From: Bdellovibrionota bacterium
Lineage (GTDB): Bacteria > Bdellovibrionota_C > UBA2361 > JAAYZI01
Reading direction: 5' to 3'
DNA length: 64,000 bases
Assembly (NCBI GenBank): GCA_050950765.1
Contig: JBMNIF010000002.1
Coordinates: 384,001-448,000, forward strand
Of this stretch, positions 19,094-55,077 are shown piece by piece. The number at the start of each line of letters is the position of its first letter. The stretch's first letter is position 1. The notes beneath the pieces are model-generated. The model ran no database searches. It was not told the origin of the DNA and worked only from the letters and a program-made list of their open reading frames with translations. Made by a program: the position numbers and the translations under genes.

Positions 19094-19438
19094 ATGGGGC
19101 GTTTAGTCGTTATAAAAGATATAGGCTATCAAGAATATAAAGATCTGATAGCGAAAGGTCTAGAAGCTAAAGATCTGGGGCGATCTCTTCTCGCCGACTC
19201 AGATAAAAACGCTCCGCTCTTAACAAAAAAATCATGGGCGGTACGTGCTTCCATTATTTGCATTATTATCTCACTTCTTTTGGCGATCTACATCGCCATC
19301 CAGTTCTCAAAAGATCTTTCTAATGACGGAGATTCTGCAATCCTTCAACTACTTAACTTTAATTCAATTACAACGAACCTTAACTACCTTTCCCCCTCCT
19401 CTTTTTTTCTAACTTCCGAACCTAGACACTTTTTTTAA
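19094..19438 (+). CDS. Hypothetical single-TM protein
   Basis: 114-aa ORF with a hydrophobic ASIICIIISLLLAIYIAI segment; a GCCGATAG motif lies upstream at 19020. Confidence 0.5.
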   Translation: MGRLVVIKDIGYQEYKDLIAKGLEAKDLGRSLLADSDKNAPLLTKKSWAVRASIICIIISLLLAIYIAIQFSKDLSNDGDSAILQLLNFNSITTNLNYLSPSSFFLTSEPRHFF

Positions 19439-19523
19439 AAAAGCTTTTAACTAAAGAATACCTCTCCTGCTTTAGATTAAAAAAGCTTCTAGCTAAAGAA
19501 TACCTCTCCTGCTTTAAATTAAA
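19436..19523. repeat. 42-bp tandem duplication
   Basis: CTAAAGAATACCTCTCCTGCTTTA at 19451 and 19493. Confidence 0.85.
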
Positions 19524-26482: not shown

Positions 26483-27861
26483 TGGGGAAACGTATTCCGA
26501 CCGTCGCCATTGTTGGGCGCGCCAACGTCGGTAAATCAACACTTTTTAATGCACTCGTTGGGCGCAAGGTTTCTATCGTAAAGGATAAGCCAGGGGTAAC
26601 TAGAGATCGTAACTATGCCTTAGTTCGAAAGTTTCCCGTACCTTTTACACTGATTGATACAGGCGGACTTCTGCATGACGACGATATCGCTTTACAGGAA
26701 TCAATCAAGAATCAGACCGATATCGCTATTCAAGAGGCTGATTTAATCTTAGCCCTATTGGACGGACTTAACGGAGTGCATCCAAATGATCACGATATTG
26801 TGAACCTCCTCCGTTGCACATCCAAACCTGTCATCTGGGTTGTTAATAAATGCGAAAAGCCTTCCATAGAGGCAAACGCTTGTGAGTTCTTCGAGCTGGG
26901 CATAGAAGATCCCTTCCGAATTAGCGCAGCACATAACGTCAATATTAAACAGCTCTTAGCTAAGATCAGAGATGTGTTGCAACTTGGAGACCCTGAGAAC
27001 TTCATTGATTCTGAAGAGGAAGAGAGCGGTGTCATCCGCATCGCTGTGATCGGACGTCCGAACGTCGGAAAGTCCACCTTTATCAACACAATCTTAGGTG
27101 AAAGTCGTCTGATTACATCTGATATCGCTGGAACTACTCGAGATAGTATCGATACACCCCTAAAACGTGAGGGGCGCGATCTCGTTCTGGTCGATACCGC
27201 AGGACTACGCAAAAAAAGTAAGGTCGATAATGCTGGGCTTGAATATGCAGGTAACGAAAGAACGATTCGCGCCTTAGCAACTTGCGATGTTGCAATACTC
27301 GTCCTCGATGTAACGCGCGGCGAACCTGCTGAACAAGATGCCAAAATCGCAGGACTAATTCACGAACGTGGTAGATCTTTAGTTATTGTTGCTAATAAAT
27401 GGGATGCCGTAGAAAAAGACCACAAATCTGCTAAAAAATATAAAGATGCCATCTATGAAGCGTTCAAGTTCGTAAAATATGCACCTGTTCTCTTCACCTC
27501 TGCCAATACCGGTAGACGCTGCCCACAAGTTATAAAAAAAGCTATCGAGGTTTACGATACCGCACGTATCAGAATACCCACCTCAGAGTTAAACAAGATC
27601 ATCTCTGAGGCTTTTGAAAAACATCAACCGCCAACACATCGCGGAAATATCGTGAAGATCTTCTTCGCCGTACAGATTAGCGTTGCACCACCAACGATTG
27701 TACTCTTCGTAAATCATCCTGATAAAATAAACTTCTCTTATCAACGTTACTTAACAAACGCTATCAGAGAAAAATACCCTTACGAAGGTGTAAAAATAAA
27801 ACTTATCGTAAAAAAACGCACCTCCGCCGGACAGGAAAAAAAGAAGCTTAAAGGTTTTTGA
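26482..27861 (+). CDS. der: Ribosome biogenesis GTPase Der (EngA)
   Basis: Two GTPase domains (GRANVGKS, GRPNVGKS; DTGG/DTAG; NKCE/NKWD) plus a KH-like C-terminus. Confidence 0.97.
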   Translation: MGKRIPTVAIVGRANVGKSTLFNALVGRKVSIVKDKPGVTRDRNYALVRKFPVPFTLIDTGGLLHDDDIALQESIKNQTDIAIQEADLILALLDGLNGVHPNDHDIVNLLRCTSKPVIWVVNKCEKPSIEANACEFFELGIEDPFRISAAHNVNIKQLLAKIRDVLQLGDPENFIDSEEEESGVIRIAVIGRPNVGKSTFINTILGESRLITSDIAGTTRDSIDTPLKREGRDLVLVDTAGLRKKSKVDNAGLEYAGNERTIRALATCDVAILVLDVTRGEPAEQDAKIAGLIHERGRSLVIVANKWDAVEKDHKSAKKYKDAIYEAFKFVKYAPVLFTSANTGRRCPQVIKKAIEVYDTARIRIPTSELNKIISEAFEKHQPPTHRGNIVKIFFAVQISVAPPTIVLFVNHPDKINFSYQRYLTNAIREKYPYEGVKIKLIVKKRTSAGQEKKKLKGF

Positions 27862-28092
27862 CCTCCGCTAACACCATAGTAGCTTTTGCAAAGCAGTTGT
27901 CCCAAGAAAAAGAAAGATAAAGCTTCTAAAATTTTGACCTCCCTTAACACCATAGTAGCTTTTACAAAGCAGTTGTCCCAAGAAAAAGAAAGATAAAAAC
28001 TCTTAAATTTTTTACCTCCGCTAACACCATAGTAGCTTTTGCAGAACTACTGTCCCAAGAAAAAGAAAGATAAAAACTCTTAAATTTTGACT
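27856..28092. repeat. 76-77-bp tandem repeat, 3 copies, starting at the der stop codon
   Basis: CCATAGTAGCTTTT at 27874, 27950 and 28027; GTCCCAAGAAAAAGAAAGATAAA in each copy. Confidence 0.9.
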
Positions 28093-31006: not shown

Positions 31007-31168
31007 TGGTAAAAGCCCGTAACAGAACTCTCACTCACTGGGACTTGATGGTAAAAGCCCGTAACAAAAATTAGACTCAATGGGACTTGATGGTAAAAGC
31101 CCGTAACAGAACTTACACTCGCTAGGACTTAGTGACAAAAGCCTGTGGGAAATTAGACTCGCTAGACC
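31007..31168. repeat. 42-bp tandem repeat, 4 copies (last degenerate)
   Basis: TGGTAAAAGCCCGTAACA at 31007, 31049 and 31091; degenerate copy at 31133. Confidence 0.9.
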
Positions 31169-36292: not shown

Positions 36293-39200
36293 ATGACAGA
36301 AACAAAGGAAAAGAAACATAAAGAGAGTAAGCCTCGAAAAAAAACGGCATCTACTTCAGCCAAAACAAAGGAGGTCAACTCTGAAACTACCGCAAAGGTC
36401 GAACAGCCGTTAGCTGCAGAAAAAAAGAGCACCCGTAAAAAAGCAACATCCAGCGCTTCAAAAAAATCTCTCTCAAAAACAGTTACAAAATCAAGAGCCT
36501 CTCTTCCGAAGTTCAAGCTTAAAATAAAACCTATTAAAGCGTTGACTTCAAAAGAGCACCTCCCTTCTGAAGAGCTTTTAGCGATTAATAAAAGTAGAGA
36601 GGAGCGTGGTCACGCTTTGGCAGATCTACTTTTTGAATATGCCAATAAAAAAAGGATATTAGATTTAGACACCTATGTAGAAGCTATTCAAGAGGCAGTA
36701 CGTGGTAAACGATCGGAGGAGAATCAAGCTATCTTAAGAGCAGCCTGCGCATACTTTAAAGAAAAGTATACAAAGTGGTGTCGTGAAAGAGGTAACAGCG
36801 TTGAGCTATTAGATAATATCGTTCGCAGAACGGGGAAAGAGACAGAGCCTTTTTTAGCTAAGCTCTTACACGGGTTTGATGTAAAAGAGATGGCGAGAGA
36901 GCTCTGGGATCTGGATGTTCAAAAGAAAACAGCAGAGTTGCGAATTGCACGGCAACAGATATACGAGCTAACAAACGATCAAGTAACGGAGCTGCGCGAA
37001 GAGTACAACACCATTCCGAGTCAAGACCTTGCAACTGAAATTCATACAGCGCTTTACGCCACTAACCTAACGGGAGAAGCACAACCTGACGTCTCTGCCA
37101 TTAAGTACGCTTTGCGTGGCAGAACCTTAAATGAAGTAAAGCAGATCGAGTTTCAATTTAATGAAAAATATCATTTCGTGTATGACGACTCCAAAGAGCC
37201 TCCTCTGCGACAACAGTTGCGTGATAAATTATCTGAAAAAGATGCGCGCGAAATTGAAAAGCTTTTAAAAGGTTTTAGCTCAAGAGAGGTGGCAGAAAAC
37301 GTACACGATCTTTTAGTTCATTGTTCGGAAGCAAGTGAAGTTATCCAAACAAAGAAGAAAATTCATCCTGATTTTTCAGGTAATTTTAGACGTGATTATT
37401 CAGCAGCTCCTGTGATAGAGCGCGAGCTGCGTGCGAGAGAAGAGATCGATCACCTAATTGAATATCTTACTCCAGCACAATTTAAAAATGTAAATCGTCA
37501 ACTTGAACAACGATTTTCAGAAAAGCTTACAGAAGGGCTTTATTCTTGCAATCATCCTTTTGATCCGCGCAAAGTTGCTATCCAACTCTTTAGATCATTT
37601 CAAAACGTTCCACAACGTAGACAGTGTCGTAAAGATCAAGATTATCTGGCGTATTCTCAGGTTCTTGAAATTAAATCACGTTTCAGTACCAGCACACACA
37701 GTGAGATAACGGAGATTATAACTAAATGGGCAAATGAACAGAAAGCTTCTGAATCTTTTCAGATAATCAAACAAGCCCTACTTCCGATTCAAGATCTAGA
37801 TCCGACACAACTTTTTTATGTTAAAAAATGGTTCTACGTCTGCACCGGTTTAACGTTGCAAAAATACATTGAAGAGCGTGTTAATTTTCTTTGCAGAAAT
37901 GATGTTCCTAAATATGTTGCTATTATTTTAAAAAACAGACTTGCTGGAACTTCTCGTTTACCACTAAAAGCAGACCTCTTTGATCTTTTCTCTACGGCGG
38001 AGCAACGCCAACAAAACTATATAAACCTAGAGCCTCAAGCAAAATTGTTAGAACAAGCTAAAGCTGATGCTAGAGCCATAGATAAAATTCTCTCGGACAA
38101 ACAGGATGCGCGCAAATCAAAAGCTTTACTAGCTTTTCTTGAGAAACGGAACAGAGATCAGAGTAATGCTATGGAAAAAGCATTTTTAGAATTGTCTAAA
38201 GGCGTTCCCTTAATAGAGGCTATCAGAAGTAAAGTTAAGTCAAAAAAATCTCAAACGGCAGCTATTTTACTTTTATCTCAATTTCATGTTTGGGAAGAGG
38301 CGAAACGTATTGATAAAGATCCTGAGCATTTATTAACACTACTAGCGGAGCCACCACGTTCAGTTGCTTTTGTGCTGCAAGAGTATAGAGCAACATACAA
38401 GAAAAACTTATCAAGTATAATTAAAAGCAGTTATAAAGGTCAGGACTTACAGGAGAAACGGTTACTTTTAAATTCCGTTCTTTTTACTCCTAACGTTTTA
38501 AAGCTGCATAAGATCTTCAAAACAACGGAGCCACTTCCAGAGGAATCTCTTCATTTTTTAACTAGACAACTTTCCCGTCCGCGTTTGGATGTACTGGCGT
38601 TTGAGGCAGCTTACAACCGCTACTTCGCACGTTTTGAATATTGCCAAGATAAACTTTACGGATCACTTTTACAGCAGTTAAGGATCTTAGCAACAGAAGA
38701 GCTTATCCCACGTCAATCTTTTGCAAGTGCTGTTCTTCTATTAGAAGATGTTGATCCATCAATTCCAGTTACGATGCAAAATCACCTAAGTGAAAAAGAG
38801 ATCGGCGGCAATGCCATTATTAAGCTGCATCAACTGTTACGCGACTTTAAAGACCACTTAAAGATCTTACAGAAAGCCTATAACGCTTTAAACGAAAAAA
38901 ATACTCTTCGCGAAACGATCTATGATCTGAAGATACCGCTCGAGGTGAAAAACAAAACTTTACTTCTGCTAGACGGTTATGATCCTGATGCGGTCGCTAA
39001 AGAGATTATCACACTACTGAAAAAAGATTTATCAGCAGAGAAACTCGGGGCTGAGATCTGCGCCATCTTAGCAACATCAACACCTAAAGCTTTTAATCCA
39101 CGCATTCCGCTGCAAGCTAACTGGATTGATGAGATGTATCATCAGATCCGTGTTAGTTATGAAGCTCAAACAGGTAGTAGACTGATAGCAGACCTACTTC

Positions 39201-39541
39201 GCAGAAACGTTCCTATGAAGGGGGCAGGCATTAACGCTATTACATATAAGCTTTACGGTGAAGTTGCCAAAACTGTTATCAACATTCGACACCTCGTTAG
39301 CTTGCGCGGAACTGCTGCCGATAAGTTTGAAGTTACGGATAGAAAAATCGTGCAAACCTTAGCGGATCTTTTACCAGCTCTAAGGGAAAGAGCTATGAAT
39401 ATGTATGATGCCTATTATTCAGATGTAGGCGGAAGTCTCTCCCTACTGGCAGAGATAAAAACCTTCTCCAATAAACTCGTCCGCCAAAATGGAATAGAGC
39501 TGCTTGAGGAAGCGCTAGTCTGGGACACTCCTGAACAGTAA
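36293..39541 (+). CDS. Large helical protein with annexin-like repeats and a Lys/Ser/Thr-rich N-terminal tail
   Basis: Recurring [GHQ][FY][DSH]xxxxAxx[LIV] starts and Y/F-xxx-[YT]-G/K-x-x-L-xxx-[IL] segments such as QEYRATYKKNLSSIIKSSYKG and VSYEAQTGSRLIADL. The CDS is secure; the annexin call is inference. Confidence 0.6.
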   Translation: MTETKEKKHKESKPRKKTASTSAKTKEVNSETTAKVEQPLAAEKKSTRKKATSSASKKSLSKTVTKSRASLPKFKLKIKPIKALTSKEHLPSEELLAINKSREERGHALADLLFEYANKKRILDLDTYVEAIQEAVRGKRSEENQAILRAACAYFKEKYTKWCRERGNSVELLDNIVRRTGKETEPFLAKLLHGFDVKEMARELWDLDVQKKTAELRIARQQIYELTNDQVTELREEYNTIPSQDLATEIHTALYATNLTGEAQPDVSAIKYALRGRTLNEVKQIEFQFNEKYHFVYDDSKEPPLRQQLRDKLSEKDAREIEKLLKGFSSREVAENVHDLLVHCSEASEVIQTKKKIHPDFSGNFRRDYSAAPVIERELRAREEIDHLIEYLTPAQFKNVNRQLEQRFSEKLTEGLYSCNHPFDPRKVAIQLFRSFQNVPQRRQCRKDQDYLAYSQVLEIKSRFSTSTHSEITEIITKWANEQKASESFQIIKQALLPIQDLDPTQLFYVKKWFYVCTGLTLQKYIEERVNFLCRNDVPKYVAIILKNRLAGTSRLPLKADLFDLFSTAEQRQQNYINLEPQAKLLEQAKADARAIDKILSDKQDARKSKALLAFLEKRNRDQSNAMEKAFLELSKGVPLIEAIRSKVKSKKSQTAAILLLSQFHVWEEAKRIDKDPEHLLTLLAEPPRSVAFVLQEYRATYKKNLSSIIKSSYKGQDLQEKRLLLNSVLFTPNVLKLHKIFKTTEPLPEESLHFLTRQLSRPRLDVLAFEAAYNRYFARFEYCQDKLYGSLLQQLRILATEELIPRQSFASAVLLLEDVDPSIPVTMQNHLSEKEIGGNAIIKLHQLLRDFKDHLKILQKAYNALNEKNTLRETIYDLKIPLEVKNKTLLLLDGYDPDAVAKEIITLLKKDLSAEKLGAEICAILATSTPKAFNPRIPLQANWIDEMYHQIRVSYEAQTGSRLIADLLRRNVPMKGAGINAITYKLYGEVAKTVINIRHLVSLRGTAADKFEVTDRKIVQTLADLLPALRERAMNMYDAYYSDVGGSLSLLAEIKTFSNKLVRQNGIELLEEALVWDTPEQ

Positions 39542-39610
39542 ATTTTTTCCCCCCTCAAAAACACGCCTCCCGCACTAGCCGCCCGCTCTGCCAGAACCCG
39601 TCTTACTAAA

Positions 39611-40939
39611 GGGTGGCACCTTTTTAACCTCCGTCCAGATCTAGCTAATTCGCTTTGCAGTATCAGCCCGTTCTATCGTCCCTAGTGGGTGGCACCAGAT
39701 CTGCCAAATTCTAAGCTTTTACTAACATACTGATATTATTAGCTATCGTTATTTTAGAGTCTTTTAGCACTGGTGGGTGGCACCAAATTTTCGGCACTGT
39801 TACTGGTGGGTGGCACCAGATCTGCCAAATTCTAAGCTTTTACTAACATACTGATATTATTAGCTATCGTTATTTTAGAGTCTTTTAGCACTGGTGGGTG
39901 GCACCTTTTTAACCTTCGTCCAGATCTAACTAATTCATTTTTTAATATCAGCCCGCCCTACCGTCCCTGAAGGGTGGCACTTTTTTAACCTCCGTCCAGA
40001 TCTAGCTGACTCGCCCTGCAGTTGCAGCCCGTTCTAGCGCCCCTGAAAGGTGGCACCAGATCTGCCAAATTCTAAGCCTTTGCTAACATACTGATATTAT
40101 TAGCTATCGTTATTTTAGAGTCTTTTAGCACTGGTGGGTGGCACCTTTTTAACCTCCGTCCAGACCTAACCAACTTGTTCTGCAGTTGCAGCCCGCTCTA
40201 TCGCCCCTGAAGGGTGGCACCATTTTAACCTTCGTCCAGATCTAGCTAATTCATTTTTTAATATCAGCCCGTTCTGCGGTCATTAAAGGGTGGCACTAAA
40301 ACTAACCATTTTTAGTTAGGTGCTAACATATTGATTTTAAAGACTTCGTCCTTTTAAGCTAAGATTCTGCACTGGTGGGAGATTCTGCACTGGTGGGTGG
40401 CACCAGTTCTTAGCCCGTCTTAGTGGTGGGTGGCACCAAATTTTCGGCACTGTTACTGGTGGGTGGCACCAGTTTTTTACCACCCCGTCCTATCGTCCTT
40501 GAAGGGTGGCACCAGTTCTTAGCCCGTCTTAACTGGTGGGTGGCACCTTTTTAACCTCCGTCCAGATCTAGCTAATTCGCTTTGCAGTATCAGCCCGTTC
40601 TATCGCCCCTAGTGGGTGGCACCAGATCTGCCAAATTCTAAGCTTTTACTAACATACTGATATTATTAGCTATCGTTATTTTAGAGTCTTTTAGCACTGG
40701 TGGGTGGCACCTTTTTGACCCCCGTGAAAACCTAACTAACTTGTTTTTTAATATCAGCCCGTTCTACCGTCCCTAAAGGGTGGCACCATTTTAACCTCCG
40801 TCCAGATCTAGCTAATTCATTTTTTAATATCAGCCCGTCCAACCGTCCCTAGTGGGTGGCACCTTTTTAACCTCCGTCCAGACCTAACCAACTTGTTCTG
40901 CAGTTGCAGCCCGTCCAACCGTCCCTAGTGGGTGGCAGC
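39611..40939 (+). repeat. Mosaic non-coding array: 20 GGGTGGCACC cores separated by shuffled modules A-E
   Basis: Cores at 39611, 39687, 39775, 39808, 39896, 39972, 40048, 40136, 40212, 40288, 40395, 40428, 40461, 40504, 40538, 40614, 40702, 40778, 40854 and 40930; four have a single mismatch. Confidence 0.95.
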
Positions 40940-41060
40940 AAATTTTTAACCTCCACCATCACTAAAGTGCGATCTCTCAATTTAACAAAGCATTGAGAAA
41001 AAAAATCTATGTCGCTATAATTATTTCACGATTTTTAAAACTTATTAAGGTGTTAGGATT

Positions 41061-41633
41061 ATGTCAGATCAAGCAAAAGAAAATGTAGTCTATGGACCTG
41101 TTGATAACGGTATCCTTGGGGTTCAGTTTAAAATATTAAAAAGCCACTATGACGACAGAGGCTTTTTTCGTGAAGTAATCCGACACAACGACCCTGTCTT
41201 TTCAGAAGGACCTTTTGCCCAGTGGAGTCATAGCAGAATGCAAAAAAACGTCGTTAAGGCTTGGCACTACCATCATCAACAGATCGATTGGTGGTATGTT
41301 CCACTAGGTCAAGTTGAAGTTGTCCTTTTTGATTACAGAGAAGATAGCCCTACATACAGGACAAAGATGATCTTTCGCATGGGAGAAAGTGAAAAATACG
41401 GAGAAGACACCCATGAGATGTGCGTCAAAATCCCTTATCGAGTGCTACACGGTTGCCAAGTTCTAAGTGATGAGGCTCACCTCTTCTACATCACAAGTAA
41501 GACCTACAACCCACAAGATGAAGGCAGGTTGCCTTTTGATTCTGATGAAGTTCCTCATAACTGGGGCGCTGACGCTATCACTTGCGAACAAGATAGACGT
41601 TTAAATAAATTAACAACGCCTGTCTCTAAATAA
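41061..41633 (+). CDS. dTDP-4-dehydrorhamnose 3,5-epimerase family (RmlC-like cupin)
   Basis: DDRGFFRE, VVKAWHYH..Q, DYREDSPTY, IPYRVLHG. Confidence 0.85.
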   Translation: MSDQAKENVVYGPVDNGILGVQFKILKSHYDDRGFFREVIRHNDPVFSEGPFAQWSHSRMQKNVVKAWHYHHQQIDWWYVPLGQVEVVLFDYREDSPTYRTKMIFRMGESEKYGEDTHEMCVKIPYRVLHGCQVLSDEAHLFYITSKTYNPQDEGRLPFDSDEVPHNWGADAITCEQDRRLNKLTTPVSK

Positions 41634-44565: not shown

Positions 44566-44685
44566 TGTCATCCACTAGGGACAATTGGACGGGTGGATAG
44601 TGAAGTAAAGAACTAGCTAGATCTGGACGGAGGTAAAAAAACCGCTAAAGGACGGTTGGACGGGGTGAAAGTACAGAACGAGTCC
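44566..44685 (-). repeat. Dispersed degenerate copies of array module A (about 1.5 units)
   Basis: CTAGCTAGATCTGGACGGAGGT and GGACGGTTGGACGGG match the reverse complement of module A. Confidence 0.85.
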
Positions 44686-50894: not shown

Positions 50895-51068
50895 CTCCAC
50901 CCTTTAGGGGTAGCAGAACGGGCTGCATCTGCAAAACAGAACTAGCTAGATCTGTACGGAGGTGAACCTGCTGCACCCATTAGGGACACCTGAACGGGCT
51001 GATACTGAAAGGCGAATCGGTTAGGTTTCTACGGAGGTCAAAAATTTGGTGCCACCCACCAGTGCAGA
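50895..51068 (-). repeat. Dispersed copy of array elements: 2 A modules plus a core
   Basis: ACGGGCTG at 50918 and 50994 (76-bp period); GGTGCCACCCACCAGTGCAGA at about 51048. Confidence 0.88.
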
Positions 51069-53501: not shown

Positions 53502-53551
53502 GAAGCATATCTTTAATTTTGTAGCAACGTATAACCTTTTTGAACAAAAGA

Positions 53552-53812
53552 GCGTAAAAGGCAAGAGTATCTATTTTTTTTCTTTAATTTTTTACCCTCT
53601 TTCTCTGAAACCACGCCCCGATTGAGTGCGGGGAAAAAGCGTAGAAGGCAAGAGTATCTATTTTTTTCTTTAAATTTTTATCTTTCTTTCTCTAAAACCA
53701 TGCTCCGATTGAGTGCGGGGAAAAAAACGTAAAAGGCAAGAGTAGCTATTTTTTCTTTAAATATTTACCTTTCTTTCTCTGAAACCATGCTCCGATTGAG
53801 TGCGGAAAAAAA
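53552..53812. repeat. 87-88-bp tandem repeat, 3 copies, duplicating the 3' end of ORF 53746..54009
   Basis: GGCAAGAGTA at 53560, 53647 and 53735; CCGATTGAGTGCGG in each copy. Confidence 0.9.
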
Positions 53813-54779: not shown

Positions 54780-55077
54780 GCCACCCTTTAAGGACAATAA
54801 AGCGGGCTGTAACTGAAAAGCGAATCGGCTAGATCTCTACGAAGGTAAAAACCCTTTAAGGATAATTAAGACGGGCTGATACTAAAAAATAAATTAGCTA
54901 GATCTCTACGAAGGTAAAAAACCTTTAATGACGATAAAGCGGGCTGTAACTAAAAAGCGAATTAGCTAGATCTTCACGGAGGTTAAAAACCCTCTAAGGA
55001 CGGTAGGACGGGCTGATACTAAAAAATAAATTAGCTAGATCTTTACGAAGGTAAAAAATGTCACCCACCAGTGACAG
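54780..55077 (-). repeat. Four tandem A-type modules (68-69 bp) lacking internal cores
   Basis: AGATCT at 54831, 54900, 54968 and 55037; core remnants only at the flanks (GCCACCC at 54780, TGTCACCCACCAGT at 55059). Confidence 0.9.

What the first reader, a model, noticed from the sequence alone, without database searches (positions are those of the whole stretch)
39611..40939. 1.35-kb mosaic array of shuffled non-coding modules joined at a near-palindromic GGGTGGCACC core
Seen: 20 same-orientation cores (GGTGNCACC dyad) delimit 19 modules in the order A B C B A A B A A B' D C E D A B A A A. Core-to-core lengths are A=76 (x9), B=88 (x4), C=33 (x2), D=33/34, E=43 and B'=89 plus an 18-bp duplication. 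B and C copies are nearly identical. A copies keep exactly 76 bp while exchanging internal blocks in patchwork fashion. Module order is irregular, so this is not simple tandem amplification, and spacers are reused, so it is not CRISPR. Known: E. coli BIMEs are mosaics of REP plus linker motifs, and REPs are associated with RAYT Y1 transposases. Inference: a BIME-like or cassette-like system with recombination or insertion at the core, driven by an enzyme outside this window. I do not recognise the family.
Basis: partly seen in the sequence, partly recalled or inferred. Interest (0 to 1): 0.85.

Follow-up and report, generated by a model that had tools for sequence, protein, structure and literature searches.

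The report
Shuffled arrays of transposon end repeats
This array is one of about a hundred in the genome, built from short non-coding pieces joined at an 11-base motif that is also the end sequence of a six-copy single-strand-cutting jumping gene, so it is an unusually large version of a known but biochemically untested kind of selfish repeat.

Summary
The array is real and as described: 20 same-strand cores and 19 reused modules. It is one of 103 arrays (1,015 cores, 2.6% of the genome). The core GGGTGGCACC(A) is the terminal inverted repeat of a ~1.4-kb element encoding a 322-aa HUH/Y1 transposase, present in six copies outside the window. The same core ends related elements in another family of the order and in Planctomycetes. 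So this is a TIRtron/TIRYT-type system that works like BIMEs but fails the REP tests.

Three results bear on mechanism. Arrays with decayed cores hold one module family (17 of 17), whereas 91 of 92 intact ones are mixed. Small deletions pile up at the core's outer tip. One module copies a host gene's stop codon. My best model is nicking and rejoining at the tip by the transposase, plus ordinary local duplication. Enzyme activity is inferred, and homology-driven slippage is not excluded.

The scan noted this system before, in another part of this genome (e1-7947350), and similar end arrays in other genomes. Verdict: new variant of a known kind.

The parts
39611..40939 (+). Array of 20 direct-orientation cores (GGGTGGCACC, the element's terminal repeat, outer tip pointing right) and 19 non-coding modules
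   Evidence: longest stop-free frame 53 codons; no Rfam match
39587..39610 (+). Partial module tail before the first core (24 bases matching modules of other arrays)
40940..40955 (+). Partial A-type module head after the last, mutated core (16 bases)
39611..39686 (+). Module A, first of nine (others start at 39896, 39972, 40136, 40212, 40538, 40702, 40778, 40854). A 76-bp form of the genome's commonest 79-bp family (200 copies in 75 arrays), 3 bases shorter at the core tip. The same family flanks the left end of all six transposase copies.
   Evidence: table 4
39687..39774 (+). Module B, first of four (39808, 40048, 40614). Family of 43 copies in 24 arrays; closest outside copies lie in the array at G000:C3:586792.
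39775..39807 (+). Module C (second copy at 40428); one near copy in the array at G000:C3:586792
40288..40394 (+). Module B' (89-bp family distinct from B) with an 18-bp tandem duplication at 40362-40397 that ends in a partial core
40395..40537 (+). Short modules D (40395, 40504), C (40428) and E (40461); D and E relatives are in the array at G000:C3:586792
36293..39541 (+). Left neighbour: 1,082-aa ORF with no Pfam family over cut-off; not part of the system
40993..41021 (+). Sigma-70-like promoter match (11 of 12) between the array and the next gene; a consensus match only
   Evidence: 2 sites found, 2.7 expected by chance
41061..41633 (+). Right neighbour: dTDP-4-dehydrorhamnose 3,5-epimerase family gene; not part of the system
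50903..51057 (-). Two further A modules with one intact core between them
54788..55059 (-). Four A modules in tandem with decayed cores (core-less, single-family array)
44575..44641 (-). Lone A module

Best explanation
The array is a non-autonomous pile of end sequences of a TIRtron/TIRYT-type element. Shown: the core is the element's terminal inverted repeat; modules are joined at the core; they are shared between distant arrays; and at least one module was made from a short piece of outer flank joined to a piece of the element's inside. Inferred: the element's HUH/Y1 transposase binds the core on single-stranded DNA and nicks at or within about 2 bases of its outer tip. It rejoins tip to tip, so that core-to-core units are duplicated, excised (probably as single-strand circles) and put back at another core. 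Imprecise events make new modules and leave small deletions at the tip. Ordinary slippage and gene conversion then add block duplications and the patchwork among A copies. The link to the element is about 90% likely, an active role of the enzyme in shuffling about 70%, and the tip-nick/circle detail about 45%.
For: (1) All six Y1_Tnp copies sit in core arrays. Each has an inverted core about 200 bp upstream and a direct core 217 bp after the stop. (2) 14 of 30 related loci have 13-22-base inverted repeats at similar distances (my script, no shuffled control). Two transposase copies in G025 and 6 Planctomycete loci carry this very core next to the gene, with short end duplications. (3) The enzyme looks intact: H61-F-H63 and Y121-x-x-x-N125-P are invariant in 30 relatives; the model (pLDDT 90) matches TnpA-REP 4ER8 best (Z 13.5, rmsd 2.8 over 154 residues); its copies differ by 15 synonymous and 3 non-synonymous changes (p 1.6e-8). 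(4) Flank variants at -6..-4 travel with the upstream module and those at +13..+15 with the downstream one. (5) 17 of 17 multi-module clusters without intact cores hold only family A, against 1 of 92 core-bearing arrays. (6) Of 73 deletion events of 2 or more bases at 160 A-A junctions in 82 loci, 38-42 touch each of the three bonds at the outer tip; at most 3 touch any bond from -16 to +1. (7) One module at G000:C2:891.7 kb starts with 13 bases of the local flank, including the neighbouring gene's stop codon, joined to the element's last 248 bases. (8) The window's array shares B, C, D and E relatives, in another order, with an array on another contig. (9) TnpA-REP cleaves, recombines and builds tandem BIMEs in vitro (PMC3333891, passages).
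Against: No activity, circle or empty site was seen. Result (5) shows that the core is the joint but not that an enzyme acts there, since slippage at 11-17 bases of homology needs intact cores too. Core-less A arrays still duplicate in tandem. 64 of 78 exact duplicates are within one array. New junctions show no fixed dinucleotide: 16 of 31 have 0-1 base of overlap. There is no leading/lagging bias (45 vs 37, p 0.44), unlike IS200/IS605. The deletion peak borders A and T runs, and inherited alleles are not independent. The nearest transposase copy on this contig is over 400 kb away. G019 has 26 cores and short arrays but no transposase was found (92% complete). Core variants were too rare to place the crossover inside the core.
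Confidence: 0.7

Rival explanations
1. The transposase only seeded end repeats. Arrays then grew and were shuffled passively by replication slippage and unequal recombination at the 11-17-base core homology and the 79-bp A homology.
For: Exact duplicates are mostly local (64 of 78). Multi-module blocks repeat in many arrays. Core-less A arrays still amplify. No junction consensus. Orphan arrays in G019.
Against: Deletions are one-sided at the outer tip rather than spread over the core or centred on its dyad. 14 exact module sequences are shared between arrays, and the window's closest relative array is on another contig. A module made of host flank joined to the element's inside with no homology is not core slippage.
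Confidence: 0.2
2. A different enzyme uses the core as a double-stranded site: an IS110-type recombinase, as proposed for Neisseria dRS3/NIME arrays, or a tyrosine recombinase.
For: The architecture resembles NIME arrays (PMC1797815, passages). GGT-type cores form a 6-7-bp dyad around 5 asymmetric bases.
Against: No IS110 family match in the genome (94% complete). The three tyrosine recombinase genes lie away from arrays in the core list. No exact match of a core-plus-A-head pattern in viral contigs. The Y1 gene is the one bounded by cores.
Confidence: 0.04
3. The arrays are kept by the host for a function such as termination, mRNA protection or processed small RNAs, and the transposase is domesticated to maintain them.
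For: Purifying selection on the transposase copies. The outer tip faces a gene's 3' end in 61 of 83 single-orientation arrays (p 2e-5). Five terminator-like matches against 2.0 +/- 1.7 in shuffles.
Against: No Rfam match. Family A has no fold beyond shuffles (mean z -0.4 to +1.0). Six copies at 98.5-99.6% identity look mobile. The orientation bias can also come from target choice or from selection against harmful insertions.
Confidence: 0.05
4. Assembly artefact.
For: No contig piece shown spans the whole array, and 7 of 20 junctions were not spanned by the pieces shown.
Against: Difference-free pieces from three studies span 13 junctions; 19 of 20 junction 40-mers are unique in the genome; modules differ from one another.
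Confidence: 0.01

Closest known systems
TIRtron / TIRYT (PMC3733652), equated with TnpA-Y1 subclass 2.1 / RAYT group 1 (PMC6006769, PMC5581495)
   Same: RAYT-like Y1 gene flanked by terminal inverted repeats; the repeats also form a genomic family in dimers and clusters; NHFH, YxxxNP and SS motifs with 60 residues between H and Y.
   Different: About 1,000 copies against 'moderately abundant' families. Head-to-tail mosaics of reusable modules. Repeat matches the GGGGWSAS consensus at only 6 of 8. No Pfam HTH or DnaA-C tail detected. Six near-identical gene copies, where group 1 has a 6.2% duplication rate.
REP / BIME / REPtron with TnpA-REP (PMC3333891, PMC8266576)
   Same: Intergenic mosaic arrays of a short motif plus linkers, enriched at gene 3' ends; closest solved fold is 4ER8; published models of circle excision and rolling-circle-like amplification fit.
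   Different: No tetranucleotide-plus-hairpin in most cores; 83 of 103 arrays in one orientation rather than inverted pairs; gene in six copies; no CT at junctions.
Neisseria NIME arrays (dRS3 plus RS elements; PMC1797815)
   Same: Hundreds of short cores separating many reused spacer families of similar length in dynamic intergenic arrays.
   Different: dRS3 is a 20-bp inverted repeat and the proposed enzyme is phage-encoded; here the core is an oriented 11-mer and the end of a resident Y1 element.
TnpA-Y1 subclass 2.3 (PMC6006769)
   Same: Planctomycete genes with the 2.3 signature (YVDLNP, 112 residues between H and Y) are bounded by the identical core, with short end duplications.
   Different: The enzyme here lacks the 2.3 insertion. 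The paper reported no REP-like flanks for 2.3.

Membership tests
TIRtron/TIRYT | HUH/Y1 transposase gene with intact HUH and catalytic Tyr | tested here: met
TIRtron/TIRYT | Gene flanked by terminal inverted repeats rather than GTAG REPs | tested here: met
   6 of 6 copies; an extra direct core lies inside the left end
TIRtron/TIRYT | Repeat also forms a genomic family of singles, dimers and clusters | tested here: met
   103 arrays, 23 outward-pointing doublets
TIRtron/TIRYT | GGGGWSAS motif (shared by some, not all, TIRs in the paper) | tested here: inconclusive
   The inward reading GGTGCCAC matches 6 of 8 positions; Figure 9 itself is not held
TnpA-Y1 subclass 2.1 | NH[YF]H, Y-x-x-x-NP, SS motif, H-to-Y distance 58-67 | tested here: met
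   NHFH, YIYINP, CSS, 60 residues
TnpA-Y1 subclass 2.1 | C-terminal domain (HTH/Bac_DnaA_C in the TIRYT members; a conserved extension in 2.1.1) | tested here: inconclusive
   A conserved ~170-residue tail is present; no HTH or DnaA-C Pfam hit in 30 of 30 members; folding the tail alone failed (pLDDT 43)
TnpA-Y1 subclass 2.1 | Assignment by the authors' subclass profiles or tree | not testable with these tools
   profiles not held
REP/BIME/REPtron | 5' GT[AG]G followed by a stem-loop | tested here: not met
   GTGG lies inside the core; GAA-type cores fold at -0.7 kcal/mol
REP/BIME/REPtron | Basic unit is two inverted copies | tested here: not met
   83 of 103 arrays are single-orientation
REP/BIME/REPtron | Single-copy, non-mobile gene | tested here: not met
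   six copies at 98.5-99.6% identity; NCBIfam NF047646 67.4 bits, cut-off 80
REP/BIME/REPtron | Cleavage of single-stranded DNA at C|T | not testable with these tools
   junction proxy shows no CT consensus
IS200/IS605 | Y-x-x-x-Q motif, ~150-aa enzyme | tested here: not met
   YIYINP, 322 aa; NF033573 18.3 bits, cut-off 55
IS200/IS605 | Orientation bias with replication | tested here: not met
   45 vs 37 arrays; strand inferred from local GC skew
NIME | 20-bp dRS3 inverted repeat as core | tested here: not met
   core is an oriented 11-mer of other sequence
CRISPR array | Unique spacers of uniform length between longer repeats | tested here: not met
   spacers reused, 23-97 bases; no Rfam match
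Integron | Adjacent integrase and gene-bearing cassettes | tested here: not met
   no tyrosine recombinase in the window; modules non-coding

The most novel reading that the evidence does not exclude
The enzyme is a hairpin-independent, sequence-specific single-strand recombinase. It treats any DNA between two direct 11-base cores as a cassette, including its own 1.35-kb gene module and captured host flanks, cutting at the core's outer tip (possibly C|C or C|A chosen by the internal GTGG). That would give subclass 2.1/2.3 Y1 enzymes a defined substrate and an integron-like mode of shuffling.
Probability: 0.3. Interest if true: 0.8.

Novelty: new variant of a known kind. Interest (0 to 1): 0.52.

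Why it matters
Subclass 2.1 is the largest group of RAYT-like enzymes, and I found no test of its substrate in the papers searched. This genome offers about 1,000 natural substrates, a defined 11-base site, a predicted break point and an apparently intact enzyme, so the question becomes a simple oligonucleotide assay. It also bears on how mosaic arrays such as BIMEs and NIMEs arise. It is not a new class: repeat families at TIRYT ends were described in 2013.

Tried and rejected
Rfam: no match. Coding: no frame over 53 codons. Conserved fold of module A: none; only the 53-bp family folded better than shuffles (z about -3 as DNA), not pursued. IS110: none. Viral contigs: 0 exact matches to one 26-base pattern. 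Arrays as paired ends of composite transposons: outward-facing neighbours are not closer than inward-facing ones (p 0.41). Local spread: neighbours share orientation (62 of 98, p 0.011), but module similarity barely falls with distance (rho -0.07). Host origin of modules by BLAST: the 45 longest hits shown were core-less module copies or element pieces, none inside an unrelated ORF. Target-site duplication: by eye none is consistent in the six copies; some Planctomycete elements have near-matching 4-mers, inconclusive. Read joints: a joint skipping about 528 bases (39694 to 40223) in two runs has no exact match in the genome (best 82-88%); it may be a shorter allele or another array, so it is not counted. 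The metagenome scan gave two distant relatives and no second strain. Folding the C-terminal half alone failed.

Full report
Observation. It is intergenic and non-coding. Exact cores number 967 in the 2.64-Mb genome against 0-2 in three shuffles. Difference-free contig pieces from three studies span 13 of the 20 junctions with 15 or more bases on each side; by the tool's 31-letter rule I count 8. Only 32 pieces were shown, none spans the array, and one run may be the source sample. A fourth run looks like another strain (6 substitutions in 444 bases of the left gene) and has low-depth pieces reaching into both array ends, but its inner order cannot be read. Runs holding half or more of the words are digester or bioreactor metagenomes (10 rows). 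The label Bdellovibrionota comes from an earlier scan note and was not tested.

Genome-wide picture. There are 103 clusters of three or more cores, with 1,015 cores over 67.7 kb (2.6%); 83 are in one orientation. Their 885 modules fall into 315 single-linkage families, led by A (200 copies in 75 arrays). Exact duplicates are mostly local (64 of 78 sequences), but 14 are shared between arrays. The window's array shares B, C, D and E relatives, in a different order, with the array at G000:C3:586792. The outer tip faces a gene's 3' end in 61 of 83 arrays, while the inner side shows no bias (42 of 83); there is no replication-strand bias (45 vs 37). ORFs came from a simple script of mine.

The enzyme. 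Six Y1_Tnp genes lie outside the window, each inside core arrays. The layout is: inverted array of mostly A modules, a 35-36-bp spacer, a direct core, a 322-aa gene, then a direct core 217 bp after the stop. The copies are 98.5-99.6% identical to one of them, mosaic (14 of 28 informative pairs incompatible), and differ by 15 synonymous and 3 non-synonymous changes, all three in one copy. H61, H63, Y121, N125 and P126 are invariant in 30 relatives. The model matches TnpA-REP best. The motifs fit subclass 2.1 of PMC6006769, not IS200; no HTH tail was detected. The family is large (553 clusters at E 1e-30 or better) and was found in 28 of 31 genomes searched, G000 included.

The core is the terminal repeat. 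Of 30 related loci, 14 have a 13-22-base inverted repeat 55-180 bases before the start and 160-290 after the stop; two loci lacked downstream DNA, and there was no shuffled control. In G025 two transposase copies are bounded by this very core. Eight had an ORF matching the transposase profile; seven are Planctomycete genes, whose motif YVDLNP and 112-residue spacing are those of subclass 2.3. In the six of these that were printed the gene is bounded by inverted cores (one is cut by the contig end on one side), with short end duplications ('stutter', a word taken from earlier scan notes). Short end arrays with other repeats occur in relatives (26 and 168 copies). The two-core pattern matched 185 times here, against 4, 1 and 0 in the other 90 genomes of the order searched. 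Fragmented assemblies will undercount.

Mechanism. Variants at -6..-4 follow the upstream module and those at +13..+15 the downstream one, so exchange lies in or beside the core. Where cores have decayed, multi-module clusters are pure A (17 of 17; an eighteenth row was two overlapping hits on one site and was dropped), whereas 91 of 92 core-bearing arrays are mixed (only the ten largest families were searched). At 160 A-A junctions, deletions peak at the outer tip: 38-42 of 73 events touch each of the bonds C8|C9, C9|A10 and A10|A11, against at most 3 on the inner side (alignment to a family consensus, alleles counted once per locus). All nine A modules of the window carry such a 3-base loss. 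One module begins with 13 bases of local flank, including the stop codon of a neighbouring gene that looks like Lon (my reading of the translation, not a database call), joined to the element's last 248 bases. Of 897 modules, 62 can be explained as one exact head-tail join. Among the 31 distinct joins with short overlap, 21 have heads of 14 bases or fewer (a minimum match of 7 was imposed), and no dinucleotide is fixed; CC is the commonest overlap (5). PMC8266576 reports that a GTGG guide redirects one TnpA-REP to CA and CC; the core holds GTGG followed by CA, CC and CA. That is a lead, not a result.

I therefore infer nicking and rejoining at the tip by the Y1 enzyme, as in the published BIME models, overlaid by passive duplication and gene conversion. 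The passive rival stands at about 20%, because homology-driven slippage also needs intact cores, core-less arrays still amplify, and G019 has short arrays with no transposase found.

Comparison and novelty. The system is TIRtron/TIRYT-type; it works like BIME and NIME arrays but fails their membership tests. Papers seen: PMC6006769, parts 1-6 of 10 of the text; PMC3733652, passages and the section on tyrosine transposases; PMC5581495, PMC3333891, PMC1797815 and PMC8266576, passages. Searches listed only two works naming TIRYT or TIRtron, and none whose listing describes head-to-tail modular arrays of such ends. I read no supplements; Figure 9 and the additional files of PMC3733652 and PMC6006769 may list similar repeats. 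Verdict: new variant of a known kind, interest 0.52.

Noticed in passing
G000:C1:385498-386066: The transposase's left-end assembly (inverted array, same 36-bp spacer, direct core) stands in front of unrelated sequence instead of the transposase gene: a moved end or a replaced cassette.
   Followed up: partly
G000:C3:471305-471440: Miniature element: inverted core, 114 bp ending in the element's right-end sequence, direct core.
   Followed up: partly
G000:C2:449900-811348: No array of three or more intact cores over 360 kb around the GC-skew switch (possible origin), though core-less A copies lie there.
   Followed up: no
L057, L067, L077, L083, L097, L100, L114: Planctomycete Y1 genes with the subclass 2.3 signature lie next to inverted GGGTGGCACC cores, although the classification paper found no REP-like flanks for 2.3.
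   Followed up: partly
L040, L042, L046 (G019): Short mosaic arrays and doublets of the same core in a 1.8-Mb genome where no transposase was found.
   Followed up: partly
L124: A long mosaic array of the same core in a contig labelled as a cyanobacterial MAG; L073 and L075 also hold core arrays.
   Followed up: no
window 27855-28091, 53547-53812, 31007-31130, 19435-19523: Other tandem repeats (76-77, 87, 42 and 42 bp) without the core; the first begins like an A head.
   Followed up: no
window 36293-39541: 1,082-aa protein with a charged low-complexity start and no Pfam family over cut-off.
   Followed up: no
G000:C2, about 893.5-893.7 kb: A tRNA-like sequence (by eye, not scanned) lies between two inverted cores next to a transposase copy's left array.
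   Followed up: no
G000:C2:8905-9317 and 891448-891924: Modules made of the element's last 413, 248 or 151 bases pile up outside its right end.
   Followed up: partly
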